Shown here: positions 7,027 through 17,623 of the stretch, one piece after another
Layout: the number at the start of each line of letters is the position of its first letter
Numbering within the stretch: position 1 is the first letter of the stretch
Source of the DNA: Alphaproteobacteria bacterium
Lineage (GTDB): Bacteria; Pseudomonadota; Alphaproteobacteria; SP197
DNA length: 64,000 nucleotides
NCBI GenBank assembly: GCA_965228895.1
Contig: OZ245842.1
Span: forward strand, 1,440,001 to 1,504,000
Direction of reading: 5' to 3'
The notes under the pieces: model-generated
Told to the model about the DNA's origin: nothing
Databases searched by the model: none
Seen by the model: only the letters and a program-made list of their open reading frames with translations
Made by a program: the position numbers and the translations under genes

Positions 7027-7944
7027 TTGGCCGATGGTTTGATGACGGGAAAGGCGGTGCTGGTGACTGGCGCCGGGCGCGGTATTGGTCGTGAGATCGC
7101 TCTGCTCATGGCAGCGGAAGGTGCCGATGTCGTGGTCAACGATCTCGGCGCGTCGCTCGATGGCGCTGGCGCGGATGAAGGGCCGGCGGCCGAGGTCGTC
7201 GCGTCGATCAAGGACGCCGGGGGACGAGCAGTCCTCAACGCCGACAGCGTCGCTGATGCGAAGGGCGGCGAACGGATGGTCGAAGCGGCGCTCGACGCCT
7301 TCGGGCGCATCGATGCGGTGGTGAACAACGCGGGCATTCTGCGCGACGCCATCTTCCACAAGATGAGCCATGCGGACTTCGAGGCGGTGATTGACGTCCA
7401 CCTGCGCGGCAGCTTCAACACCAGCCGCGCCGCCGCCGCGTATTTCCGCGAGCAGGGCTCCGGCGCCTTCGTCCACTTCACCTCCACATCCGGGCTGATC
7501 GGCAACATCGGCCAGGCCAACTACGCGGCGGCCAAGATGGGCATTGTCGGGTTGTCGCGCGGGATCGCGGTGGACATGGCGCGTTTTGGCGTGCGTTCCA
7601 ATTGCATCGCCCCGTTCGCGTGGTCGCGCATGATCGGTTCCATCCCGACCGAGACCGAGGAGCAGCAGGCCCGCGTCGACAAGCTGAAGTCGCTGACGCC
7701 GGCCAAGATCGCTGCCATGGCCGTTTTTCTGGCGAGCGACGCCGCCGCCGAGGTTAGCGGGCAGATCTTCTGCGTGCGCGGTGACGAGGTTTTCCTGATG
7801 AGCCAACCCAGGCCGCTGCGCTCGTTGCATCGCGACGGCGGCTGGACACCGCAGGCGCTGGCCGATCAGATGCTGCCGGCCTTCAAGGGTGACCTTTATC
7901 CGCTCGACGTGTCCGGCGACGTCTTCTCCTGGGATCCCGTGTGA
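7027..7944 (+). CDS. SDR oxidoreductase, (R)-3-hydroxyacyl-CoA dehydrogenase / MFE-2-like
   Basis: TGAGRGIG, VVVNDLG, NNAGILRD, GQANYAAAK; TTG start after GAGGGAG (exact start uncertain). Confidence 0.85.
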   Translation: MADGLMTGKAVLVTGAGRGIGREIALLMAAEGADVVVNDLGASLDGAGADEGPAAEVVASIKDAGGRAVLNADSVADAKGGERMVEAALDAFGRIDAVVNNAGILRDAIFHKMSHADFEAVIDVHLRGSFNTSRAAAAYFREQGSGAFVHFTSTSGLIGNIGQANYAAAKMGIVGLSRGIAVDMARFGVRSNCIAPFAWSRMIGSIPTETEEQQARVDKLKSLTPAKIAAMAVFLASDAAAEVSGQIFCVRGDEVFLMSQPRPLRSLHRDGGWTPQALADQMLPAFKGDLYPLDVSGDVFSWDPV

Positions 7945-8816
7945 GATCAACGGTGGCGATTGATTCTGCAGCCGTTGCGGCCTTTGACATCCCGCCCTTC
8001 TCAGGCGCCTACACGGCCCATGACAGTGTGATCTACCACTTGGGTCTGGGCCTAGGGCACGACCCCGTCGACCGCGACGTCCTGCCGTTCGTCTACGAAC
8101 CCTGGGGACCGAAGGTTCTGCCGAGCGTCGTCACGGTGGCCGGTGACCCCAACCATTGGCTCGCCGATTCCACGCTGGGCCTGCGCGACGTGCCCAACGT
8201 GCATGGCGACCAGACGATCATCATCCACGCCCCTCTCCCGGCCGACGGGTCTGTCACCAGCCGATCCCGCATCACTGGTCTCTATGATAAGGGCGCTGGC
8301 AGTCACGCCATTCTGACCTTCGAAGAGGAGATCGTGGATGCGGAGACCGGTCAAGCCTTGGCGACCCAGCTCCAGACCGACGTTTTGATCGGTGGTGGCG
8401 GATTTGGCGGAGAGCCACCGCCGCCGTCCGCGCGCGTCGCGATGCCTGAGCGCGCGCCCGATGCCGTCCGCGATCATCCCGTCGCGCCGGAGGCCGCTCT
8501 GATCTATCGCCTGTCCGGCGATCACTATGCGCTGCATGTTGAGCCTGAGTTTGCGCGCGATGCTGGATTCGATGGACCAATCCTGCATGGACTCACGACC
8601 TATGGCATCGCCTGTCACGCGGTTGTTGCGTGTTGCTGCGACCATGCGCCCGAACGCATCGTGCGTTTCCATGGCCGCTTTTCGGCGCCGGTCTATCCCG
8701 GCGAAACCCTGCGCACTTCCCTGTGGCGCGATGGGTCGGCCGTGTGGTTTGAAACCCGCGCGGTCGACCGCGACATCGTCGTGCTGGCGAACGGCCGCGC
8801 CGAGCTGAAAGGATAG
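7941..8816 (+). CDS. MaoC double hot-dog (hydratase-2 type) enoyl-CoA hydratase
   Basis: VHGDQ, YRLSGDHYALH, PILHGL, RFSAPVYPGETL. Confidence 0.85.
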   Translation: MRSTVAIDSAAVAAFDIPPFSGAYTAHDSVIYHLGLGLGHDPVDRDVLPFVYEPWGPKVLPSVVTVAGDPNHWLADSTLGLRDVPNVHGDQTIIIHAPLPADGSVTSRSRITGLYDKGAGSHAILTFEEEIVDAETGQALATQLQTDVLIGGGGFGGEPPPPSARVAMPERAPDAVRDHPVAPEAALIYRLSGDHYALHVEPEFARDAGFDGPILHGLTTYGIACHAVVACCCDHAPERIVRFHGRFSAPVYPGETLRTSLWRDGSAVWFETRAVDRDIVVLANGRAELKG

Positions 8817-8820
8817 GCTG

Positions 8821-9681
8821 TTGGCCATTGACTACGATCGTTTGAAAGCCTGGTCGTTTCCCGAGGACACGCGGATCTGGACCTGGGCGGAGACGGCGCT
8901 CTATGCGCTCGGCGTCGGTCTTGGACACGATCCGCTTAACGAACAGGCGCTGCGCTTTGTCTACGAGAAGGACATGAAAGCGCTGCCCACCATGGCGGTG
9001 GTCCTGCAGCCGACAGGCTTCTGGCTGCGCGATCCGGAGACAGGTGTCGACTGGCGTCGTGTCGTGCATGGCGAGGAGAGTCTGGTCCTGCATAAGACAC
9101 TTCCCGTCGAAGGCCGCTTCTTTACCCGCAGCCATATCGAGGAGATCATCGACAAGGGCGAGGGGCGGGGCGCCTTGATCTATATCTGCCGCGATATCGT
9201 TGACGCGGACAGCAACGATACCGTTGCGACGATCAGGCGCACCACCTTCGCCCGTGGCGATGGCGGCTTCGGCGGCCCGTCGGGCCCGGTGCGCCAGCCC
9301 CATCCGATGCCCGAGCGCGAGCCGGATTACGTCTGCGACCTCCCGACCTTGCCGCAACAGGCGCTGATCTATCGCTTGAACGGTGACGACAACCCGCTGC
9401 ACGCCGATCCGGATGTCGCGCGCGATGCCGGTTTCGAGCGTCCCATTCTGCATGGTCTGTGCACGTTCGGTGTTGCCGGCCATGCGGTGCTCAGGACATT
9501 GTGCAAATACGATCCCACGCGTTTCAAACGTCTGGACGTGCGATTTTCGGCGCCGGTCTTTCCGGGCGAAACGATCCGCACCGAGCTATGGGTCGATGGC
9601 CCCGTGGTATCACTGCGCGCCCGCGTCGCCGAACGCGATGCCATTGTCTTGAACAACGGATTGGTGGAGCTAGCAGCATGA
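8821..9681 (+). CDS. MaoC double hot-dog (hydratase-2 type) enoyl-CoA hydratase
   Basis: LYALGVG, VHGEE, YRLNGDDNPLH, PILHGLCTFG, RFSAPVFPGET. Confidence 0.9.
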   Translation: MAIDYDRLKAWSFPEDTRIWTWAETALYALGVGLGHDPLNEQALRFVYEKDMKALPTMAVVLQPTGFWLRDPETGVDWRRVVHGEESLVLHKTLPVEGRFFTRSHIEEIIDKGEGRGALIYICRDIVDADSNDTVATIRRTTFARGDGGFGGPSGPVRQPHPMPEREPDYVCDLPTLPQQALIYRLNGDDNPLHADPDVARDAGFERPILHGLCTFGVAGHAVLRTLCKYDPTRFKRLDVRFSAPVFPGETIRTELWVDGPVVSLRARVAERDAIVLNNGLVELAA

Positions 9682-10040
9682 GCGGACCGGACGCGCAGTA
9701 TTACGCCTATCTGAAAGCCGGCAGCCTGCATATCCAGCGGTGCGGCGCGTGTGAGCGGTTCATTTTCTATCCGCGGATCCTGTGCCCCCATTGTGGCGGC
9801 GCCGATCTCGAATGGCGGCAGGCAAGCGGCCGCGGCACGGTTTATGCCACGACGGTTATCCGCCGACGCCCTGAACAGGGCCCTGCCTACAACCTCTGCC
9901 TGGTGGATCTGAACGAAGGCATCCGGTTGACCAGCCGGGTCGAGGGTTTGGCGCCCGAGGACGTGGCCATCGGGATGCCGGTCCAGGCGCGTATTGCCGA
10001 GCAGGACGGTGAACCCATCGTCGTCTTCGATCCGGCATGA
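9678..10040 (+). CDS. DUF35 Zn-ribbon/OB-fold protein
   Basis: QRCGAC...YPRILCPHC, SGRGTVY, VDLNEGIRL, IGMPV; ATGA overlap with the upstream gene. Confidence 0.9.
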   Translation: MSGPDAQYYAYLKAGSLHIQRCGACERFIFYPRILCPHCGGADLEWRQASGRGTVYATTVIRRRPEQGPAYNLCLVDLNEGIRLTSRVEGLAPEDVAIGMPVQARIAEQDGEPIVVFDPA

Positions 10041-11188
10041 GTCTACGCGGCAAAACGGCAGCGGTTGGCGTCGGCCTGGCTGGTCTGGGCGAGGCGCCCG
10101 GCTATAGCCATCTCGATCTGATTGCCATGGCGGTCCAAGAGGCCCTCGATGAGGCCGGGCTGTCTATGAGCGATGTCGACGGCCTGTTCACGGCCAACCT
10201 GCAGAACGTCTTCGCGCCGCTCAATGTCGGTGAATACCTGGGCATCCGACCGAAAGTCAGCGACGGCACGCAGATCGGCGGATCGTCGCCGGTTGCCCAT
10301 TTGCTGTGGGCAGCGTTGGCGTTGGAGGCCGGGTTATGCGACGTCGCGCTGATCTGTTACGGCAGCAACCAGCGCAGCGCCGCCGGTCGGCTCTTATCAC
10401 CGTCGACGGGTGAACCGCTGATCTATGAAACGCCCTACGGCCCACGTTTTCCCATCAGTTCCTACGCGCTCGCTGCGTCACGCCATATGTATGACTACGG
10501 GACCACACGCGAGCAACTGGCAGGAGTCGCGGTTGCCGCGCGGCAATGGGCGGCGCTCAACCCGCAAGCCTTCATGCGTGATCCCCTGAGCGTCGAGGAT
10601 GTGCTGACCAGTCGTATGGTGTGCGACCCCCTGACCGTGCGCGATTGCTGCCTGGTGACCGATGGCGCCGGCGCGGTGGTCATGACGCGGTCCGATCGCG
10701 CTGCCTCCGGTCGAAAGCCGCCGGTCTATCTGTTGGGCGTCGGTCAGGCACACTGGCATCGGCAGATTTCTCAAATGCCCGACCTGACGATGACAGCGGC
10801 GACCGAGAGCGGTCCACGCGCTTTCGCAATGGCCGGCATTGGGCCAAAGGATATCGATGTCGCCGAACTCTATGATGCCTTCACCATCAACACGGTGCTG
10901 TTTCTGGAGGATCTCGGCTTCTGCCCGAAAGGCGAGGGCGGGCCTTTCGCTGCGAGCGGGGCGATCGCGCCGGGCGGCACGCTGCCGGTCAACACCAATG
11001 GCGGCGGTCTCTCCTGTGTTCATCCCGGCATGTACGGCATCTTCACGGTCATCGAGGCCATCCAACAACTGCGCGGCGAAGCGGGCGATCGCCAAGTGAA
11101 AGGCGCTCAAACGGCGGTGAGTCACGGCAATGGCGGCCATCTGTCCAGCCAGGTGACGGCGGTCTGGGGTGCGTCTGCGACGCTGTGA
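10037..11188 (+). CDS. SCP2/Ltp2-type thiolase-family protein
   Basis: DCCLVTDGAGA, ELYDAFT, NTNGGGLS, HGNGG; GGSS at the usual nucleophile position. Confidence 0.9.
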   Translation: MSLRGKTAAVGVGLAGLGEAPGYSHLDLIAMAVQEALDEAGLSMSDVDGLFTANLQNVFAPLNVGEYLGIRPKVSDGTQIGGSSPVAHLLWAALALEAGLCDVALICYGSNQRSAAGRLLSPSTGEPLIYETPYGPRFPISSYALAASRHMYDYGTTREQLAGVAVAARQWAALNPQAFMRDPLSVEDVLTSRMVCDPLTVRDCCLVTDGAGAVVMTRSDRAASGRKPPVYLLGVGQAHWHRQISQMPDLTMTAATESGPRAFAMAGIGPKDIDVAELYDAFTINTVLFLEDLGFCPKGEGGPFAASGAIAPGGTLPVNTNGGGLSCVHPGMYGIFTVIEAIQQLRGEAGDRQVKGAQTAVSHGNGGHLSSQVTAVWGASATL

Positions 11189-11246
11189 TACCTGGACCGC
11201 CATCGCTGCCCGTGGTGATATCCATGACAGTCAACCGGGAGGTTCC

Positions 11247-11957
11247 ATGGACGACTACAATTATGCGGCCTTTGCCCCGACGGACAAGGAGATGGAGAAG
11301 TTCTCGCGTTTCTTCGAGGCGCCCAACGCCGGCACCGTCGCGCCCGACTATGCGTTGGAGGACCTGGCGACCGGCGATGCGGTCCACCTGAAGGATCTGT
11401 GGAAACGCGACGCCGTCATCATGGAGTTCGGCAGCTACTCCTGAGCCTACTGCACCATGGCGGCCGCGGCGATGGAAGACATCGCCAGCCGGTACGCTGA
11501 TCGGTCCGTGCGATCGGTTTTCATCTATGTGCGCGAAGCTCACCCCGGCGAATTCCTGCCGCCTCATGACTCGATGGAGCGCAAGCGCGAGCACGCGCGC
11601 GCGTTTGTCGAAGAACAGAACATCGAACGTCCGGTCCTGGTCGATACGATCGACGGCGCCTGCCACAACGGTTATGGGCAACTGCCCAACATGACATGGA
11701 TCATCGGGCGCGGTGGTCTGATCCTCTATAAGGCGGCATGGACCAGACCGGACGACGTCGAGGCGGCGTTAGAGGAATGCCTGGGCGGATACATGCGTCG
11801 GCGCCAGGACGAACTGATGCCCGCTTACGCCGAGCGTCTTATCTGGCGTGCGGAGGAAAATGATCGCTTCATCGAGATCTGCAAGCGTGCTGGACCGCAA
11901 GCCATCGCGGACATGTTTGGTGAAGAAGCCGCGAGGAAAGCTTTTGAGAACGATTAG
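11247..11957 (+). CDS. Deiodinase-like thioredoxin-fold selenoprotein (Sec = UGA at 11442-11444, UxxC)
   Basis: GGAGG RBS and ATG at 11247; single frame ...APDYALEDL...VIMEFGSYS-TGA-AYCTMA...FIYVREAHPGE...YGQLPN; 236 aa with read-through; SECIS-like hairpin downstream. Confidence 0.85.
11461..11491 (+). promoter_or_regulatory. Putative bacterial SECIS element
   Basis: Stem GGCGATG(11468-11474)/CATCGCC(11480-11486), 5-nt loop GAAGA starting with G, lower stem CGGC/GCCG; loop begins 30 nt after the UGA. Confidence 0.7.
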
Positions 11958-13386
11958 AGTCGGCGTCGCCTGTGTCCTGTCGGCACTCTTTTTCTCTTCT
12001 GTGGCAGGCATTTCCACCCGCGCGGATGATGCTGATATCGCCGCTCGTTACCTGCTGGTCGCCTATGATCCGCTCAACGATCAGACGACAACGCTCGCCA
12101 GGGCGATTGTGGATCGGCCCGATGCATCCTGCCCGGTTTTCGAGCTAGTCGGTGAGGACGGCGGTGCAACGACCGAGCTCGCGACAGCCATCCGCCAAAA
12201 CCCCGACCGCGAGGCTTTTCCGGTAACCGTGTGCGAGGCGGTTGTGCCACCGGGGCATCAGGCGACTGTCGGCGGTGTGCCGTTGCCGGTCTTCAAGCCC
12301 GACCCCGAGCATGTGGTCATCGTCGGCGACAGCGGTTGCAACGGCGGCGATAAACAGAATTGCGATTACGCCTGGGCGTTTCCGGGAATCGCCGACCACG
12401 CTGCAGCGAACCGTCCCGACCTCGTTATCCACGTTGGCGACTGGAACTATCGGGGGACGCAGAAAACAACGGTCGACGGTGAAGCGACCTATGACAGTTG
12501 TCTGCCTGACCCCGGCAAGCCCTGGGTCGACTCGACAGCAGACGATACGTGGCAGACATGGTCTGCGGACGTGTTCATGGCTGCCGCGCCGCTAATGGCC
12601 GTAGCGCCCTGGATCGTCGCGCGTGGCAATCATGAATTGTGCAGCCGCGGCGGCCGTGGCTGGTTCTATTTCCTGGATCCCCGTTCGACATTGCTTGATC
12701 CGTACCGCGCCGTTCCGACCTGCAACGGTCCGACGGTGCAGACCGATCCCTATGCGCTCGATCTCGGCAACCTGCAGATTGTCGTTTTTGACTCGGCCAA
12801 TGCCTGTGATGAGGCGGCTTATGAGGACGAAATGGCGCTTGCCTATCAGGCACGCATCTATGCACGTTTGTTCGACAGTGTCGCTACGTTGATCGGCGAA
12901 GGTGACAAGCCCGTATGGCTGCTGACGCATCACCCCATCTGGTCGGCCGTGCGTTATGCCGGGGAACCCGATTTGGTTACGGTGAACCTGACCCTGCAGA
13001 ACGGACTCAGGCAATCGCTCGCCGCGTCGCTGCCCGCGGCCGTTAAGCTGGTGCTCAGCGGGCACGTGCACGAATTCCAATCGATCACCTTTGACAGTGA
13101 CCGTCCGCCGCAACTGATGGTGGGGAATTCGGGCGTGAAGATGGACGCCAACTTGCTCGACAACCCCTATGTTGTCGAGATTGATGGGCAGACGGCGACG
13201 GGGCTGGCCCTTTCGGCAAGGAACGGGCCGGACACCTACGGCTACTTAGAGGCCAGGATCGGCGAGGATGGCACCATGGCTGGAAGTCTCTACGGGTTCG
13301 CGCCCGATGGCATGGCGACGGGAGAGATCACGGCGACCTGTGCACTTCCGGTGCGCGAGGACGGATTGTGCCGTCTGACCCCTTAG
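11944..13386 (+). CDS. Secreted calcineurin-like metallophosphoesterase
   Basis: Signal-peptide-like N-terminus; GDSG, HVGDWNY, RGNHE, THHP, SGHVH motifs; TTG start overlaps the selenoprotein stop. Confidence 0.85.
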   Translation: MRTIRVGVACVLSALFFSSVAGISTRADDADIAARYLLVAYDPLNDQTTTLARAIVDRPDASCPVFELVGEDGGATTELATAIRQNPDREAFPVTVCEAVVPPGHQATVGGVPLPVFKPDPEHVVIVGDSGCNGGDKQNCDYAWAFPGIADHAAANRPDLVIHVGDWNYRGTQKTTVDGEATYDSCLPDPGKPWVDSTADDTWQTWSADVFMAAAPLMAVAPWIVARGNHELCSRGGRGWFYFLDPRSTLLDPYRAVPTCNGPTVQTDPYALDLGNLQIVVFDSANACDEAAYEDEMALAYQARIYARLFDSVATLIGEGDKPVWLLTHHPIWSAVRYAGEPDLVTVNLTLQNGLRQSLAASLPAAVKLVLSGHVHEFQSITFDSDRPPQLMVGNSGVKMDANLLDNPYVVEIDGQTATGLALSARNGPDTYGYLEARIGEDGTMAGSLYGFAPDGMATGEITATCALPVREDGLCRLTP

Positions 13387-13469
13387 GCGAGCCTGCGACC
13401 CAATGATCGTTTGAGAACGATCGTTGGGACCGGCTAGAGTGCCCGGCAGCGTGTAACAAGGGGTGCCTG

Positions 13470-15551
13470 ATGGGTCGTGATCCACATTATGACGTGCTGT
13501 TCGAACCGGTAGAGATCGGGCCGGTCACGGCGCGGAACCGTTTCTATCAGGTGCCCCATTGCAACGGGATGGGCGTCCAATACCCAAGCGCCATGGCCGC
13601 GATGCGCGGCGTCAAGGCCGAAGGCGGCTGGGCGGTTATCTGTACCGAAGAGTGCGACTTTCACGTCACCGGCGACGTGACGCCGGCAATCGAGGCGCGA
13701 TTGTGGAGCGAGCAGGACATTCCGATCATGGCGCGCATGACCGAGGCCGTGCACCTGCACGGTGCGCTGGCCGGTTGCGAGTTGGTCTATGGCGGCCCGG
13801 CCGGTCACAACCGTCAGTCGCGCGAGATCCCCATGGCGCCGTCTGCCATGCCGGTGTTTGGCTCGGAGCCGGGCCATGCGCGCGCCATGGACAAGACCGA
13901 CATCAAGAACTTCCGGCGATGGCACCGTCAGGCGGCACTGCGTGCGCGCGATGCCGGTTTCGATCTGGTCTATGTCTATGCCGGTCATAACCTGTGCCTG
14001 ATGCAGCACTTCATTTCGCGCCGCTACAACCAGCGCACCGACGAATATGGCGGAAGCATCGAAAACCGTACGCGGCTGATGCGCGAAGTGATCGAAGACA
14101 CCAAGGAGGTGGTCGGCGATACCATGGCGGTCGCCGTCAGGTTCGCGGTCGACGAACTGGCCGGCGATCAAGGCATCACGGCCAGTGGCGACGGTGAGGC
14201 CGTGGTCGAACTTCTCGCCGAGATGCCCGATCTGTGGGACGTCAATGTCAGCGAATGGCCGAACGATTCCCAGACCGCACGGTTCGCCGAAGAAGGGTTT
14301 CAGGAAGAGTTCATCGGCTTCGTCAAAAGCAAGACGTCGAAGCCGGTGGTTGGCGTCGGCCGCTATACCAGCGCCGACCGTATGGTTAGTCTTGTGAACA
14401 AGGGTGTCATGGATATGATCGGCGCGGCGCGGCCGTCGATTTCAGATCCCTTCCTGCCCAAGAAGATCGAGGAGGGGCGCATCGACGACATCCGCGAATG
14501 CATCGGCTGCAACATCTGCGTGTCCGGTGACTTCATGTACATGCCCATGCGCTGCACCCAGAACCCGACCAAGGGCGAGGAGTGGCGCCGAGGCTGGCAC
14601 CCCGAAAAGATCGCGCCGAAGGCAAGCGACTCAAGCGTGCTGATCGTTGGCGCCGGACCGGCCGGCCTGGAATGCGCGCGTGCGCTGGGCGAACGCGGTT
14701 ATCCCGTATCGCTTGCCGAGGCGGGGACCGAACTGGGTGGCCATGTCAATGCGGTCAGTTTGTTGCCGGGATTGTCGTCGTGGGCGCGGGTGCGCGATTA
14801 CCGCGTCGGTCAGATCCAGAAGATGCCGGGCGTCGAGGTGTTTCTCGACAGCAAACTCGGTGCCGATCACGTGCGCGAGTTCGGGTTCGACCATGTCGTG
14901 TTGGCGACCGGGTCGTCTTGGGCGCGCGACGGACTAGGCGAAACCCATCGTAGTCCCATACCAGGCGCCGACCACGATCACGTGCTGACGCCCGATGACG
15001 TGATCGGTGGCCGTGCGATCGACGGGCCGGTCGTGATCTTCGACGACGACCATTATTTCATGGCGAGTGTTCTGGCGGAAAAGCTTCGCGCCGACAGCCA
15101 TGATGTTACTTATGTCACGCCGGCCGCCGACGTCGCGACCTGGACCCATAACACGATGGAGCAGCCACGCATTCAGACCCGCTTGTTGGAACTTGGCGTG
15201 GTCGTGCGTACAGCGAAAAGCCTCGCGGCGATCGGCGATCAGGATGCTGAACTGGCGTGTGTGTATACCGGAAGGCGCGAGACGATTGCGGCCGGCGGCG
15301 TCGTACTTGTCACGATGCGCACGCCCCACGACGCGCTCTATCACGAACTAGCGGGTGATCAGGCCGCCCTTGACGCCGCCGGCATACGGTCGGTGACGCG
15401 CATTGGCGACTGTCTGGCGCCCGGTTTGATTGCCGCTGCCGTTTATGGCGGCCACAAATATGCGCGGGAGCTCGATGCGCCCGCACCGATTGATGAGGTT
15501 CCGTTTCGCCGTGAAATCCTTGAACTCAGCAACGACTGGCCGGTGCTCTGA
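13470..15551 (+). CDS. Histamine/trimethylamine dehydrogenase-family iron-sulfur flavoprotein, copy 1
   Basis: RFYQVPHCNGMG (FMN-attachment Cys), RTDEYGGS, ECIGCNIC...CTQN 4Fe-4S motif, GAGPAG. Confidence 0.92.
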   Translation: MGRDPHYDVLFEPVEIGPVTARNRFYQVPHCNGMGVQYPSAMAAMRGVKAEGGWAVICTEECDFHVTGDVTPAIEARLWSEQDIPIMARMTEAVHLHGALAGCELVYGGPAGHNRQSREIPMAPSAMPVFGSEPGHARAMDKTDIKNFRRWHRQAALRARDAGFDLVYVYAGHNLCLMQHFISRRYNQRTDEYGGSIENRTRLMREVIEDTKEVVGDTMAVAVRFAVDELAGDQGITASGDGEAVVELLAEMPDLWDVNVSEWPNDSQTARFAEEGFQEEFIGFVKSKTSKPVVGVGRYTSADRMVSLVNKGVMDMIGAARPSISDPFLPKKIEEGRIDDIRECIGCNICVSGDFMYMPMRCTQNPTKGEEWRRGWHPEKIAPKASDSSVLIVGAGPAGLECARALGERGYPVSLAEAGTELGGHVNAVSLLPGLSSWARVRDYRVGQIQKMPGVEVFLDSKLGADHVREFGFDHVVLATGSSWARDGLGETHRSPIPGADHDHVLTPDDVIGGRAIDGPVVIFDDDHYFMASVLAEKLRADSHDVTYVTPAADVATWTHNTMEQPRIQTRLLELGVVVRTAKSLAAIGDQDAELACVYTGRRETIAAGGVVLVTMRTPHDALYHELAGDQAALDAAGIRSVTRIGDCLAPGLIAAAVYGGHKYARELDAPAPIDEVPFRREILELSNDWPVL

Positions 15552-15553
15552 CC

Positions 15554-17623
15554 ATGACACGCGATCCCCGTTACGACGTCCTCTTCGAACCCGTTCAAAT
15601 CGGACCGGTTACCGCGCGCAACCGGTTCTATCAGGTGCCCCATTGCAACGGCATGGGCCGCACCTTCCCGTCCAGCATGGCGCGCATGCGAGGCGTCAAG
15701 GCCGAGGGCGGCTGGGCGGTCATTGCGACCGAGCAGATCGATATCCATCCAACGGCAGACATTACGCCGGCGACCGAAGGCCGGCTGTGGTCGGACGAGG
15801 ACATCCCCTATCTCGCGCGCATGTGCGATGCGGTGCATGAGCACGACTCCCTGGCGCTGATCGAACTGACCCACAACGGCAAATACGTGACCAATGCCTA
15901 TAGTCGCGAGGTGCCAATCTTCGTCAACCATATGCCCGTGGTCGGCACGTTCCCGGTGCAGGCACGCGCCATGGACAAAGAAGACATCCGGAACTACCGG
16001 CGCTGGCATCTGGATGCGGTCAAACGGTCGAAGAAAGCGGGGTTCGACATCGTCTGCTGCTACGCCGCCCACAATTTGTCGCTCGCCGGTCAGTTCATGC
16101 TGCGCCGTTACAACCACCGCACCGACGAGTATGGCGGCAGCCTGGAAAATCGCGTGCGACTGTTCCGGGAGATCATGGAGGAAGCGAAGGACGCGGTTGG
16201 CGACACCATGGGTGTGGTCGCGCGTTTCGCAGTCGATGAACTTCGCGGCGATGAAGGCATGGAGTGGGACAAGGAAGGCCGCGAGATCATCGAGATGTTG
16301 GCCGAACTGCCCGATCTCTGGGACGTCAATGTTGCGGAGTGGCACAACGATTCGCAGACCAGCCGGTTTTCCGAAGAAGGTTTTCAGGAGCCGTTCATCG
16401 AGTTCGTCAAAAAGGTGACGACCAAGCCGGTTGTCGGCGTCGGCCGCTACACGTCCGCCGACCGCATGGTCTCCGTCATCAACAAGGGCATCATGGACAT
16501 GATCGGCGCGGCGCGGCCGTCGATCGCCGATCCTTTCCTGCCCAAAAAGATCGAAGAGGGTCGCATCGAGGACATCCGCGAGTGCATCGGCTGTAACATC
16601 TGCGTCAGCTGGGACATTTCGACCGCGCCCATGCGCTGCACCCAGAACCCGACCAAGGGGGAGGAATGGCGCAAGGGTTGGCACCCCGAGCAAATCGAGC
16701 CGAAGACGACGGACGATACGGTCCTCGTCGTCGGCGCCGGGCCGGCCGGCCTCGAAGCCGCGTGGGCGCTTGGCCAGCGCGGCTACGATGTGACGCTGGC
16801 TGATGCTTCGGAGGAACCGGGCGGCCGTGTGACGTGCGAAAGCAAGCTGCCGGGGTTGAGCGCTTGGGCCCGCGTTCGCGACTACAGAATCTATCAGATC
16901 CAGCAAATGCCGAACGTCATGCTGTATCCGGCAAGTTCCTTGGATGCGGCGCAAATTCTGGAGTTTGGCGCGACCAGCGTGGCCATCGCCACTGGCGCGA
17001 CGTGGCGCCGGGATGGCTATGGGCGCGCGCACCAGTTTCCGATTCCCGGCACCGAAGGCGCCAACGTCTTTACGCCGGACGACATCATGGCCGGTACCAC
17101 ACCGGCGGGACCGGTGCTGGTCTACGACGACGACCACTACTACATGGGCGGCCTGATTGCCGAGCAGCTGCGCGCTGACGGTACCGATGTCATCCTCGTG
17201 ACGCCTGAGGTTAAGATTTCGGCCTGGACCGACCAGACCCTGGAACAAAGCCGCATTCAGGCGCGTGTGATGGAGAGCGGGATCGATATTGTCCTCAGCC
17301 ACACCTTGCGTGCCATCGGGGAGAGCGAGGTCACACTAGCGTGTGGCTATACGCAACACGAACGCAAGGTGGCGGCATCCTCTGTCGTCATGGTGACGTC
17401 ACGTCAGCCGGTCGATCAGCTGTATTGGGATCTGGTTGCCGATCAGCAGGCCTTGTCCGATGCCGGGATCACGTCGGTGCGCCGCATCGGCGATTGTTAC
17501 GGGCCGGCGACAATTGCGGCGGCGGTGTACGAAGGACATCGCTATGCGCGTGAACTCGGCGCAAAACCTGCAGGTGACATACCGTTTCGCCGTGAGTTGA
17601 CGGAGCTGTCAGCCGACTTTTGA
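15554..17623 (+). CDS. Histamine/trimethylamine dehydrogenase-family iron-sulfur flavoprotein, copy 2
   Basis: Same motifs as copy 1; starts 2 bp after its stop. Confidence 0.92.
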   Translation: MTRDPRYDVLFEPVQIGPVTARNRFYQVPHCNGMGRTFPSSMARMRGVKAEGGWAVIATEQIDIHPTADITPATEGRLWSDEDIPYLARMCDAVHEHDSLALIELTHNGKYVTNAYSREVPIFVNHMPVVGTFPVQARAMDKEDIRNYRRWHLDAVKRSKKAGFDIVCCYAAHNLSLAGQFMLRRYNHRTDEYGGSLENRVRLFREIMEEAKDAVGDTMGVVARFAVDELRGDEGMEWDKEGREIIEMLAELPDLWDVNVAEWHNDSQTSRFSEEGFQEPFIEFVKKVTTKPVVGVGRYTSADRMVSVINKGIMDMIGAARPSIADPFLPKKIEEGRIEDIRECIGCNICVSWDISTAPMRCTQNPTKGEEWRKGWHPEQIEPKTTDDTVLVVGAGPAGLEAAWALGQRGYDVTLADASEEPGGRVTCESKLPGLSAWARVRDYRIYQIQQMPNVMLYPASSLDAAQILEFGATSVAIATGATWRRDGYGRAHQFPIPGTEGANVFTPDDIMAGTTPAGPVLVYDDDHYYMGGLIAEQLRADGTDVILVTPEVKISAWTDQTLEQSRIQARVMESGIDIVLSHTLRAIGESEVTLACGYTQHERKVAASSVVMVTSRQPVDQLYWDLVADQQALSDAGITSVRRIGDCYGPATIAAAVYEGHRYARELGAKPAGDIPFRRELTELSADF

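What the first reader, a model, noticed from the sequence alone, without database searches (positions are those of the whole stretch)
11247..11957. Hidden deiodinase-like selenoprotein with a UxxC active site
Seen: the track ORFs ending at 11444 and starting at 11457 share one frame, separated by a single TGA plus GCC TAC TGC ACC, giving FGSYS-U-AYC. A GGAGG RBS precedes ATG 11247, and no SD precedes 11457. Known: iodothyronine deiodinases have FGSxTU at this thioredoxin-fold position and a downstream Y..EAH motif (here YVREAHP); bacterial deiodinase-like selenoproteins have been reported. Inference: the TGA encodes Sec at codon 66. Unlike the animal UPPF site, this has a Cys three residues later (UxxC), suggesting a selenenylsulfide-cycling reductase or reductive dehalogenase with unknown substrate. 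Pipelines would call it a pseudogene or split gene.
Basis: partly seen in the sequence, partly recalled or inferred. Interest (0 to 1): 0.9.

Follow-up and report, generated by a model that had tools for sequence, protein, structure and literature searches.

The report
Deiodinase-like bacterial selenoprotein with UxxC
A gene that looks cut in two by a stop codon most likely encodes one selenium-containing redox enzyme related to thyroid-hormone deiodinases; this bacterial family has been catalogued since 2005, but its function has never been tested.

Summary
Window 11247-11957 (+) is one frame with a single in-frame TGA at codon 66, in the motif FGSYS-U-AYC.

The reading as selenocysteine is strongly supported:
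- Of the 93 related loci that cover this column, 75 have TGA, 18 have Cys codons and none has anything else.
- All 71 loci of the window's own U-x-[YF]-C clade have TGA.
- Codons on both sides of the TGA are under purifying selection.
- A stem-loop follows the TGA and shows covariation.
- The genome has selA, selB, tRNA-Sec and selD.
- TGA forms occur only in selB-positive genomes: 6 of 6, against 55 of 401 in the class sample.

The family profile's best solved relatives are mouse Dio3 and Dio2. The deiodinase proton-relay residues are conserved, but the thyronine-binding loop-D is about 9 residues shorter, and a Cys sits three residues after Sec.

This is not new as a kind. 'Deiodinase-like protein, PF00837, UxxC' is listed in selenoprotein catalogues that go back to the 2005 Sargasso Sea study. 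The substrate is unknown.

Databases hold these genes almost only as truncated C-terminal fragments.

Verdict: a real, well-supported new member of a known selenoprotein family, of moderate interest.

The parts
11237..11242 (+). Shine-Dalgarno-like GGGAGG, 4 nt upstream of the start codon
   Evidence: Read directly.
11247..11957 (+). Full selenoprotein coding sequence: 236 codons including Sec66, then TAG stop at 11955-11957
   Evidence: The N-terminus M-D-x-YNY is conserved in orthologues. dN/dS is 0.15-0.24 upstream of the TGA and 0.05-0.16 downstream.
11442..11444 (+). In-frame TGA, read as selenocysteine 66
   Evidence: 75 of 93 loci have TGA at this column and 18 have TGC/TGT. There is no difference here in runs X1 and X3.
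11451..11453 (+). TGC, Cys69: the proposed resolving Cys of the U-x-x-C centre
   Evidence: Cys at +3 was the criterion used to define the 71 U-x-x-C loci, so it holds in them by construction. Sec66 lies just before helix 67-86 of the model and Cys69 in its first turn.
11458..11499 (+). SECIS-like stem-loop. It starts 13 nt after the TGA and has 17 interrupted pairs. The apical hairpin is 11468-11486 with loop GAAGA at 11475-11479.
   Evidence: Fold. Across 59 distinct orthologous 66-mers, 70.9% of cells pair against 27.6-45.5% in slid controls, and 10 of 17 pairs change on both sides.
11526..11567 (+). Y94-x-x-E97-A-H99-P100 ... H107: the counterpart of the deiodinase Tyr/Glu/His/His proton-relay segment, with loop-D shortened
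   Evidence: HMMER alignment of profile A3 to Dio3 (4tr3) and Dio2 (9h48). E97, H99 and P100 are invariant and Y94 and H107 nearly invariant in the 46 sequences.
11748..11954 (+). C-terminal helical extension (residues about 168-236) beyond the thioredoxin-fold core. It carries the conserved P-x-Y-x-E-R and G-P-Q-A motifs.
   Evidence: Model helices 168-188, 205-212, 217-224 and 226-234. Conservation is shown. The profile match to Dio3 ends at profile position 162.

Best explanation
Window 11247-11957 is one gene for a soluble, probably cytoplasmic, 236-residue thioredoxin-fold selenoprotein. It belongs to the bacterial 'deiodinase-like' family. TGA 11442-11444 is decoded as selenocysteine 66 by SelB and tRNA-Sec, guided by a stem-loop that starts 13 nt downstream.

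Proposed mechanism (inferred, not shown):
- The selenolate of Sec66, at the N-terminus of helix alpha-1, attacks an oxidised or electrophilic substrate.
- A relay of residues shared with deiodinases (Ser63, Ser/Thr65, Tyr94, Glu97, His99, His107) delivers a proton.
- Cys69 then attacks the oxidised selenium and forms an intramolecular selenenylsulfide.
- A thioredoxin- or glutaredoxin-type thiol system re-reduces that bond.

The substrate is unknown. My split is: small electrophile such as a hydroperoxide about 0.35, disulfide about 0.3, organohalide (true dehalogenation) about 0.2, other about 0.15.

What is shown is the conserved TGA/Cys column, the hairpin, the Sec machinery and the homology. 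Selenium insertion itself, the chemistry and the substrate are inferred.
For: - Conserved TGA: 75 of the 93 loci covering the column have TGA, 12 TGC, 6 TGT and 0 other. All 71 loci with Cys at +3 are TGA forms, with motif FGS-x-[ST]-U-[PA]-[YF]-C.
- Cys in called homologues: 84 of 97.
- Phylogeny: the window's gene lies in a 44-row all-Sec clade (SH-aLRT 99). That clade sits inside a 66-row group of 61 Sec and 5 Cys forms.
- Selection: dN/dS is 0.15-0.24 for codons 1-65 and 0.05-0.16 for codons 67-230, against four orthologues.
- Hairpin: the 17-pair stem has 70.9% of cells paired against 27.6-45.5% in slid controls, and a covariation score of 0.202 against 0.128 shuffled (0 of 500 shuffles reach it).
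- Downstream folding: z averages -1.80 for 57 Sec forms and -0.22 for 16 Cys forms.
- Sec machinery: selA, selB, tRNA-Sec (82 bits) and selD are all over cut-off in the genome.
- Co-occurrence: 6 of 6 TGA-holding genomes in the class sample have selB, against 55 of 401 overall. All 10 handles tested directly have it.
- Homology: profile A3 against PDB gives Dio3 4tr3 E 3.5e-19 and Dio2 9h48 E 7.3e-15; the next thioredoxin-family hit is at 9.6e-12.
- Structure: the AF2 model has pLDDT 92.6, and the top Foldseek hit is 4tr3.
- Pfam: 46 of 46 family members match PF00837 at E <= 0.001.
- Relay residues: they are named in passages of PMC11592359 and align to conserved residues here.
- Literature: the family with motif UxxC is listed in PMC9312934 and PMC13188914 (passages).
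Against: - There is no direct evidence that selenium is inserted.
- On its own, the window's hairpin folds no better than shuffles (z -0.76; 40 of 200 shuffles fold as well).
- Rfam gives no match in the window.
- The hairpin is not universal. About 29% of cells are unpaired, and a distant subclade uses a different hairpin closer to the TGA.
- For the 7-pair core, a +3 slide gives an equal covariation score (0.193 against 0.185). The structure tested was derived from the window's own sequence, which favours it.
- The protein's own Pfam T4_deiodinase score (26.3) is below the gathering score of 27, while AhpC-TSA (30.7) is above its cut-off of 26.
- Foldseek scores ResA/TlpA-type oxidoreductases almost equally (E about 3e-10, TMt 0.85 against 0.72 for Dio3).
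- 13 of 97 homologues have neither Cys nor Sec at the column (A 5, S 3, G 2, D 1, T 1, W 1).
- No gene neighbour is conserved across the clade, so nothing points to a substrate.
- Sampling is biased. The metagenome loci were seeded with patterns from Sec forms, and the protein databases lack full-length Sec forms. The Sec:Cys ratio is therefore not a population estimate.
Confidence: 0.88

Rival explanations
1. The TGA is a simple nonsense mutation or assembly error, and the locus is a pseudogene.
For: Standard gene calling splits the frame. One relative (G014) does carry a disrupted copy: residues about 124-172 are missing and the two pieces lie in different frames.
Against: The TGA is at the same column in all 71 loci of the clade, at 37-88% identity. 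Purifying selection acts on both sides of it. It is retained in the independent assembly X3. Cys occupies the column in homologues.
Confidence: 0.01
2. Translation really stops at 11444. The functional product is the 166-residue protein from ATG 11457, with or without a separate 65-residue peptide.
For: Databases hold hundreds of such C-terminal fragments, and an ATG exists at 11457.
Against: There is no Shine-Dalgarno sequence before 11457. Residue 71 is Leu, not Met, in many orthologues (motifs ...CALA and ...CTLA). Gene callers pick different starts: query residues 71, 76 and 79. The cut would fall between strand beta-1 and helix alpha-1 and remove the active-site residue. The N-terminal 65 codons are under purifying selection in frame.
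Confidence: 0.03
3. The TGA is read through, but as Trp or Cys by near-cognate suppression or a local recoding signal. The product is then a thiol protein or an inactive protein, not a selenoprotein.
For: Selenium insertion is not shown. The single-sequence hairpin statistics are weak. No Rfam family matches.
Against: TGA forms are found only in genomes with selB: 6 of 6 against 55 of 401. Cys forms occur with and without selB: 3 of 7 holders have it. The stem-loop covaries and lies in the position expected for a bacterial SECIS. Sec forms fold more stably downstream than Cys forms. TGA is a normal stop in the neighbouring gene.
Confidence: 0.04
4. A rival about function. The protein is a true reductive dehalogenase that acts on iodinated or brominated phenolic compounds, as animal deiodinases do, rather than a general peroxide or disulfide reductase.
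For: Deiodinases are the nearest solved relatives. All six relay residues proposed for deiodination, plus the Sec itself, are conserved.
Against: Loop-D, the element said to border the active site and recognise the thyronine, is about 9 residues shorter and lacks the D-G-W motif. The UxxC centre is the hallmark of thiol-disulfide oxidoreductases, and ResA-type folds match almost as well. No halogen-related gene neighbour was found. The authors who described the family suggested only 'a redox function' (passage of PMC1088965).
Confidence: 0.2

Closest known systems
Bacterial 'deiodinase-like protein' selenoprotein family. It was described in the Sargasso Sea selenoproteome study of 2005 (PMC1088965). 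PMC9312934 and PMC13188914 list it as PF00837 with motif UxxC.
   Same: It is a bacterial TGA-encoded Sec protein with Cys-containing homologues, a bacterial-type stem-loop after the TGA, a Pfam T4_deiodinase relationship and the UxxC motif (passages; my tests).
   Different: Nothing demonstrable. I could not fetch the catalogued representative accessions, so identity of clade is inferred from the motif and the Pfam family only. My additions are the shortened loop-D, the conserved relay residues, the C-terminal helical extension and the scale of database truncation.
Animal iodothyronine deiodinases Dio1-3 (solved cores 4tr3 for Dio3 and 9h48 for Dio2)
   Same: The F-G-S-x-T/S-U active-site strand, the Y-x-x-E-A-H-P motif, and the His aligned with Dio3 His219. 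The thioredoxin/peroxiredoxin-like fold is shared. These are the best profile-to-PDB hits and the top Foldseek hit.
   Different: The motif is U-A-Y-C instead of U-P-P-F. Loop-D is about 9 residues shorter and has no D-G-W. Pro129 aligns where Dio3 has Cys239 (my count; the role of Cys239 is recalled). There is no hydrophobic N-terminal anchor. An extra C-terminal helical region of about 70 residues is present. A separate alphaproteobacterial clade (L039, L040, L047, L049) keeps U-P-P-F, D-G-W and the long insertion, and is the closer deiodinase look-alike.
TlpA/ResA-type thiol-disulfide oxidoreductases (for example ResA, 1su9 and 1st9)
   Same: The thioredoxin fold has a C/U-x-x-C centre at the start of helix alpha-1. 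Foldseek gives E about 3e-10 and TMt 0.85.
   Different: Sequence profile hits are weaker and cover only the N-terminal half (E 1e-9 to 1e-5, profile positions about 24-97). The window's protein has no signal peptide or membrane anchor, and it carries the deiodinase-type E-A-H-P and His relay.
Peroxiredoxins (Pfam AhpC-TSA, PF00578) and Prx-like UxxC selenoproteins
   Same: The AhpC-TSA score of 30.7 is above its cut-off of 26. Ser sits three residues before Sec, as Thr does in peroxiredoxins.
   Different: The PxxxTxxU motif quoted for Sec-peroxiredoxins (passage) is not present: Met59 stands where the Pro would be, and Ser stands in place of Thr. Deiodinases score far better with the family profile.
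NCBIfam NF038285 'deiodinase_rel' (deiodinase family protein, 347 positions)
   Same: It is the best NCBIfam hit, E 4.1e-20, over residues 22-164.
   Different: The score of 72.5 bits is far below the cut-off of 250, and only the C-terminal domain of that model (positions 172-325) is matched. The protein is not a member.

Membership tests
Bacterial selenoproteins (SelB/SECIS-dependent UGA decoding) | In-frame TGA conserved among orthologues, with coding conservation on both sides | tested here: met
   All 71 clade loci have TGA. dN/dS is 0.15-0.24 upstream and 0.05-0.16 downstream.
Bacterial selenoproteins (SelB/SECIS-dependent UGA decoding) | Cys-containing homologues aligned at the Sec column | tested here: met
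   18 of 18 non-TGA loci have TGC or TGT. 84 of 97 database homologues have Cys and 13 have other residues.
Bacterial selenoproteins (SelB/SECIS-dependent UGA decoding) | Stem-loop shortly downstream of the UGA, with a small apical loop containing G | tested here: met
   The stem is 11458-11499 and the loop is GAAGA. 70.9% of cells pair across 59 sequences against at most 45.5% in slid controls, and 10 of 17 pairs change on both sides. Caveats: the single-sequence z is -0.76, and a distant subclade uses another hairpin. The loop-G criterion comes from a passage of PMC1088965.
Bacterial selenoproteins (SelB/SECIS-dependent UGA decoding) | selA, selB, selC (tRNA-Sec) and selD present in the genome | tested here: met
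   All four are over cut-off and clustered at G000:C1:4488687-4495383. 6 of 6 TGA-holding genomes in the class sample have selB, against 55 of 401 overall.
Bacterial selenoproteins (SelB/SECIS-dependent UGA decoding) | Selenium actually incorporated at the UGA position | not testable with these tools
   This needs 75Se labelling or mass spectrometry.
Pfam PF00837 T4_deiodinase / bacterial deiodinase-like family | Score at or above the Pfam gathering score (27 bits) | tested here: inconclusive
   The window's protein scores 26.3 bits, E 5.5e-6, just under 27. 46 of 46 family members match at E <= 0.001, best 4.5e-13. The family profile's best PDB hits are Dio3 (3.5e-19) and Dio2 (7.3e-15).
Pfam PF00837 T4_deiodinase / bacterial deiodinase-like family | Sec in the F-G-S-x-T/S-U strand, plus the Y-x-x-E-A-H-P motif and the downstream relay His | tested here: met
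   S63, S65, U66, Y94, E97, H99 and H107 align with Dio3 Ser167, Thr169, Sec170, Tyr197, Glu200, His202 and His219. The numbering is counted from the alignment and is consistent with the passages. Conservation is shown.
Animal iodothyronine deiodinases (Dio1-3) | Dio-specific insertion (loop-D omega-loop, with D-G-W) that borders the active site and recognises the thyronine | tested here: not met
   Six residues lie between P100 and H107, against 15 in Dio3, and there is no D-G-W. The role of the loop comes from passages of PMC11592359.
Animal iodothyronine deiodinases (Dio1-3) | U-P-P-F active-site continuation, with no Cys at +3 | tested here: not met
   The window has U-A-Y-C, and the clade has U-[PA]-[YF]-C.
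Animal iodothyronine deiodinases (Dio1-3) | N-terminal membrane anchor | tested here: not met
   The N-terminus MDDYNYAAFAPTDKEMEKF has no hydrophobic segment. That deiodinases are membrane enzymes is stated in the abstract of PMC11592359 (listing).
TlpA/ResA thiol-disulfide oxidoreductases | C-x-x-C (here U-x-x-C) at the start of helix alpha-1 of a thioredoxin fold | tested here: met
   U66 and C69 lie at the start of helix 67-86. Foldseek gives ResA E about 3e-10 and TMt 0.85.
TlpA/ResA thiol-disulfide oxidoreductases | Export signal or membrane anchor (extracytoplasmic location) | tested here: not met
   There is no hydrophobic N-terminal segment. That ResA and TlpA are extracytoplasmic is recalled.
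Peroxiredoxins (PF00578) | P-x-x-x-T-x-x-C/U active-site motif | tested here: not met
   The sequence is M59-E-F-G-S63-Y-S-U66, with no Pro at -7 and Ser instead of Thr. The motif comes from a passage of PMC13188914. The Pfam AhpC-TSA score of 30.7 does pass its cut-off of 26.
NCBIfam NF038285 deiodinase_rel | Score at or above the curated cut-off (250 bits) | tested here: not met
   The score is 72.5 bits.

The most novel reading that the evidence does not exclude
The U-x-[YF]-C clade would be a distinct, almost exclusively Sec-dependent class of soluble, cofactor-free reductive dehalogenases or halophenol-detoxifying enzymes of environmental bacteria. It keeps the deiodinase selenolate and proton relay. 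It replaces the thyronine-binding loop-D with its own conserved C-terminal helical module for substrate binding, and it regenerates itself through an internal selenenylsulfide with Cys at +3. On this reading it would represent the bacterial chemistry from which animal deiodinases were recruited.
Probability: 0.12. Interest if true: 0.75.

Novelty: new member of a known kind. Interest (0 to 1): 0.33.

Why it matters
- Annotation. In the searched collections this family exists almost only as truncated fragments of 146-192 residues that lack the active site. None of the best 120 hits cover the Sec column, and 156 of 270 start just after it. Selenoproteomes and redox inventories of these bacteria are therefore undercounted.
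- Biology. This is a bacterial relative of thyroid-hormone deiodinases that keeps the Sec and the proposed proton relay but lacks the hormone-binding loop. It offers a simple, soluble system for asking what the deiodinase active site does outside thyroid hormone metabolism, and whether the +3 Cys gives a self-resolving catalytic cycle.
- Limits. No member has been assayed, according to the review passages I saw, which state that such functions 'remain largely' unknown. It is not a new kind of system.

Tried and rejected
- Rfam scan of the whole window at gathering thresholds: 0 matches. No curated bacterial SECIS model supports or contradicts the hairpin.
- The single-sequence fold of the 69 nt after the TGA is not better than shuffles (z -0.76). 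Support for the hairpin comes only from the comparative counts.
- The search for related loci on genome contigs with the single protein gave just 1 locus (L028). That scan was poorly spent; an alignment query would have reached further.
- A search for conserved gene neighbours across 69 clade loci found none that is general. 38 loci have at least 1200 nt upstream and 38 have at least 1200 nt downstream. A thiolase-like gene lies upstream only in the 8 loci at 66% identity or more. DUF3179 is adjacent in 8 loci. The largest 'clusters' were shadow frames of the gene itself.
- I considered a link to the surrounding MaoC / ChsH2-like / thiolase-like and OYE-type reductase genes. I set it aside because the synteny does not extend beyond close relatives.
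- Promoter and terminator scan of 10800-12400: 1 promoter-like site on the minus strand and 3 weak terminator-like sites, against 1.0 +/- 1.0 expected. None is convincing.
- Sequencing runs: X2 and X4 contigs do not cover 11442-11444, so they say nothing about the TGA. X1 is near-identical and may be the source of the window, so it is not independent. All laid runs are contigs, so there is no evidence on expression.
- A Sec-type formate dehydrogenase (TIGR01553) was sought in the genome: no match over cut-off and none with an in-frame stop. I did not survey the rest of the genome's selenoproteome.
Se-S distances and the packing of the C-terminal extension could not be measured.
- Supplementary files of the papers are closed. 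They may hold the sequences or accessions that would show whether the catalogued 'deiodinase-like UxxC' representatives fall in this same clade.
- Papers: I saw only search listings and find-mode passages of PMC1088965, PMC13188914, PMC9312934, PMC2398784 and PMC11592359. The 2014 Dio3 structure paper is recalled, not read.
Full report
**Observation.** Window 11247-11957 (+) is a single reading frame of 236 codons, interrupted only by TGA at 11442-11444 (codon 66).
- The local peptide is FGSYS-U-AYC.
- GGGAGG lies 4 nt before ATG 11247, and nothing Shine-Dalgarno-like precedes ATG 11457.
- TGA is otherwise a stop in this organism: the thiolase-like gene just upstream ends in TGA at 11186-11188.

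**Is the TGA conserved, and what do homologues have there?**
- Database proteins.
  - The word-indexed search returned 562 hits. The best 120 are all 146-192 residues long and cover only 58-70% of the query.
  - None of those 120 covers the Sec column.
  - The exhaustive representative search gave 1613 hits at E <= 0.001.
  - Of the 270 proteins in hand, 156 begin at query residues 67-91, just after the TGA. Another 97 span the site, with Cys in 84 and other residues in 13 (A 5, S 3, G 2, D 1, T 1, W 1).
- Six-frame genome searches.
  - The two same-genus genomes (87% identity) keep one in-frame TGA. So do three genomes of two other families in the class (47-50% identity).
  - A copy in G014 is disrupted.
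- Metagenome scan.
  - A scan seeded with an alignment of six orthologues added 74 loci.
  - Of the 101 loci examined (L023-L123), 93 cover the column: 75 TGA, 12 TGC, 6 TGT and none other.
  - 71 TGA loci carry Cys at +3, with motif FGS-x-[ST]-U-[PA]-[YF]-C. This count includes the window itself (L023), L027 (the same place as L026) and L028 (identical to L025 over the 66 nt compared).
  - The other 4 TGA loci carry U-P-P-F.
- Selection. Codons 1-65 have dN/dS 0.15-0.24 and codons 67-230 have 0.05-0.16, against four orthologues. The part upstream of the TGA is therefore translated.
- Independent assembly. Run X3, which carries a different organism label and 29 differences in 1001 nt, has no difference at the TGA.

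**SECIS.**
- The RNA after the TGA folds into an interrupted 17-pair stem (11458-11499). Its apical hairpin is 11468-11486 and its loop is GAAGA.
- On its own it is not better than shuffles (z -0.76).
- Across 59 distinct orthologous 66-mers, which align without gaps, the results are:
  - 70.9% of cells pair, against 27.6-45.5% when partners are slid;
  - 10 of 17 pairs change on both sides;
  - covariation is 0.202 against 0.128 shuffled, with 0 of 500 shuffles as high.
- In the core hairpin, G30:C42 is swapped to C:G in 13 sequences.
- A distant subclade instead has a hairpin 12-30 nt after the TGA.
- Downstream regions of Sec forms are more structured than those of Cys forms. Mean z is -1.80 (n = 57) against -0.22 (n = 16), with Mann-Whitney p = 2.7e-4. 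This p-value is overstated because the sequences are kin.
- Caveats: the tested structure came from the window itself, and the 7-pair core scores equally at a +3 slide.

**Sec machinery.**
- selA, selB, tRNA-Sec (82.4 bits) and selD are all over cut-off and clustered near 4.49 Mb of the 5.53 Mb genome.
- In the 401-genome class sample, selB is over cut-off in 55.
- The six sampled genomes with a TGA form (G000, G114, G283, G304, G331, G402) all have selB.
- Of seven genomes with only Cys forms, three have it: G156, G219 and G308 do, and G046, G104, G108 and G303 do not.
- All ten handles tested directly have selB.

**What the protein is.**
- Family scans of the window's own protein.
  - Pfam gives AhpC-TSA 30.7 bits (cut-off 26) and T4_deiodinase 26.3 bits (cut-off 27).
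  - NCBIfam's best hit is deiodinase_rel, at 72.5 bits against a cut-off of 250.
- Family profile.
  - A 46-sequence family alignment matches PF00837 in 46 of 46 members at E <= 0.001.
  - As a profile, its best solved relatives are mouse Dio3 (4tr3, E 3.5e-19) and Dio2 (9h48, 7.3e-15). Generic thioredoxin-family proteins follow from 9.6e-12 and match only the N-terminal half.
- Structure.
  - The AlphaFold model is confident (pLDDT 92.6, pTM 0.91).
  - Foldseek ranks 4tr3 first (E 2.6e-10, 177 columns), but ResA-type oxidoreductases are practically tied.
- Active-site residues.
  - I counted along the alignment from the catalytic Sec170.
  - Dio3 Ser167, Thr169, Tyr197, Glu200, His202 and His219 fall on S63, S65, Y94, E97, H99 and H107. 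All are invariant or nearly so in the family.
  - These are the residues proposed as the deiodinase proton relay (passages of PMC11592359).
- Differences from deiodinases.
  - Loop-D is about 9 residues shorter and lacks D-G-W.
  - The Sec is followed by A-Y-C rather than P-P-F.
  - Pro129 aligns with Dio3 Cys239.
  - There is no hydrophobic N-terminus.
  - A conserved helical extension of about 70 residues follows the core.
- A separate alphaproteobacterial clade (L039, L040, L047, L049) keeps U-P-P-F, D-G-W and the long insertion.

**Phylogeny.** I built a quick IQ-TREE tree of 177 rows. These were the distinct sequences spanning query residues 60-150, without L027 and L028.
- The window's gene sits in a 44-row all-Sec clade (SH-aLRT 99).
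- That clade lies inside a 66-row group (SH-aLRT 83) of 61 Sec and 5 Cys forms.
- This group is sister to a 97-row group without Sec forms (86 Cys, 11 other).
- The U-P-P-F clade lies outside both.
- Sampling is biased towards Sec forms among loci and towards Cys forms among database proteins.

**Mechanism (inferred).**
- Sec66 sits just before helix 67-86 and Cys69 in its first turn. This is the arrangement of C-x-x-C oxidoreductases.
- The most economical cycle has three steps:
  1. The selenolate attacks the substrate, helped by the Ser/Tyr/Glu/His relay.
  2. Cys69 resolves the oxidised selenium to a selenenylsulfide.
  3. A cellular thiol system reduces it.
- The substrate is unknown.
- The gene follows a MaoC-MaoC-ChsH2-like-thiolase-like cluster by 58 nt. 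It precedes a metallophosphoesterase and two OYE/FAD reductases.
- Only the thiolase-like neighbour is conserved, and only among the 8 closest loci.

**Comparison with what is known.**
- The Sargasso Sea study reported bacterial Sec and Cys homologues of deiodinase with bacterial SECIS elements and suggested a redox function (passages of PMC1088965).
- The GOS study lists 'Deiodinase-like, pfam00837'.
- Two reviews list 'Deiodinase-like protein, PF00837, UxxC'. One of them says the functions of such proteins remain largely unknown.
- The finding is therefore a correct detection of a new member of a known, uncharacterised selenoprotein family.
- Full-text searches for 'bacterial deiodinase', 'deiodinase homolog', 'deiodinase-like protein' and 'prokaryotic deiodinase' returned 12 papers. 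None looked, from its title and abstract, like a biochemical study of a bacterial member.

**Verdict.**
- Observation: confirmed.
- Interpretation: supported, except for its novelty.
- Confidence that this is a genuine Sec-encoding deiodinase-like gene: about 0.9.
- The chemistry and the substrate remain open.
- Interest: moderate (0.33).

Noticed in passing
window 7941-11188 (+): Four co-directional genes lie just upstream: two MaoC-type hydratases (7941-8816, 8821-9681), a ChsH2-like zinc-ribbon/OB-fold protein (within 9459-10040) and a thiolase-like protein (10037-11188). The set resembles a steroid or branched side-chain beta-oxidation module. The thiolase-like gene is upstream of the selenoprotein gene in the 8 loci at 66% identity or more.
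   Followed up: partly
window about 11950-17623 (+): Downstream lie a calcineurin-like metallophosphoesterase and two tandem paralogous OYE-FMN / FAD-NAD(P) reductases of about 690 residues (13470-15551, 15554-17623). The open frame of the phosphoesterase overlaps the selenoprotein's 3' end, and its N-terminus looks like a signal peptide. The reductases are of the 2,4-dienoyl-CoA-reductase type.
   Followed up: partly
G000:C1:4488687-4495383 (outside the window; loci L001, L004, L012, L015): The Sec genes are clustered in the order selA, selB, tRNA-Sec, selD. selD is the C-terminal part of a 731-residue ORF whose N-terminal 300 residues are a pyridine nucleotide-disulfide oxidoreductase domain, so it is a fusion protein.
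   Followed up: partly
G000, whole genome: No Sec-type formate dehydrogenase alpha subunit was found. The TIGR01553 search gave no match over cut-off and none with an in-frame stop. Which other selenoproteins justify the full Sec machinery here is an open question.
   Followed up: no
G304:C4:381614-384957 and G331:C15:113818-117692 (loci L039, L047): The U-P-P-F deiodinase-like Sec genes of two other alphaproteobacterial genomes lie about 1-1.5 kb from selB. In G283 and G402 the U-x-Y-C gene is 12-14 kb from selB on the same contig.
   Followed up: no
L053, L081, L088, L100, L104, L105, L107 (and a diverged copy in L089): A DUF3179 gene is adjacent to the selenoprotein gene in 8 of 69 clade loci from several subclades. 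It carries a signal-peptide-like N-terminus and a conserved T-[FY]-C-P-L-C-N motif (Cys form). DUF3179 is itself listed as a selenoprotein family (UxxC/T) in two reviews. The window's genome has two DUF3179 genes, at 2.88 Mb and 4.75 Mb, neither adjacent.
   Followed up: partly
G014:C1:178342-178933 (L026/L027): The orthologue in a same-family genome looks degraded. Residues 1-123 (with the TGA) and 173-233 lie in different frames and the middle is missing, although that genome has selB.
   Followed up: partly
L089-L095, L100-L102, L107 (alignment A2, columns 13-31): A distant subclade of the family (39-44% identity) has its post-TGA hairpin 12-30 nt after the TGA, with a 3-nt G-rich loop. This suggests the SECIS has been repositioned within one protein family.
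   Followed up: partly
Protein collections: The family is systematically mis-called. Gene callers start it at residues corresponding to query Met71, Met76 or residue 79, giving fragments of 146-192 residues without the active site. One 65-residue N-terminal fragment (P0247) also exists as a separate 'protein'.
   Followed up: yes
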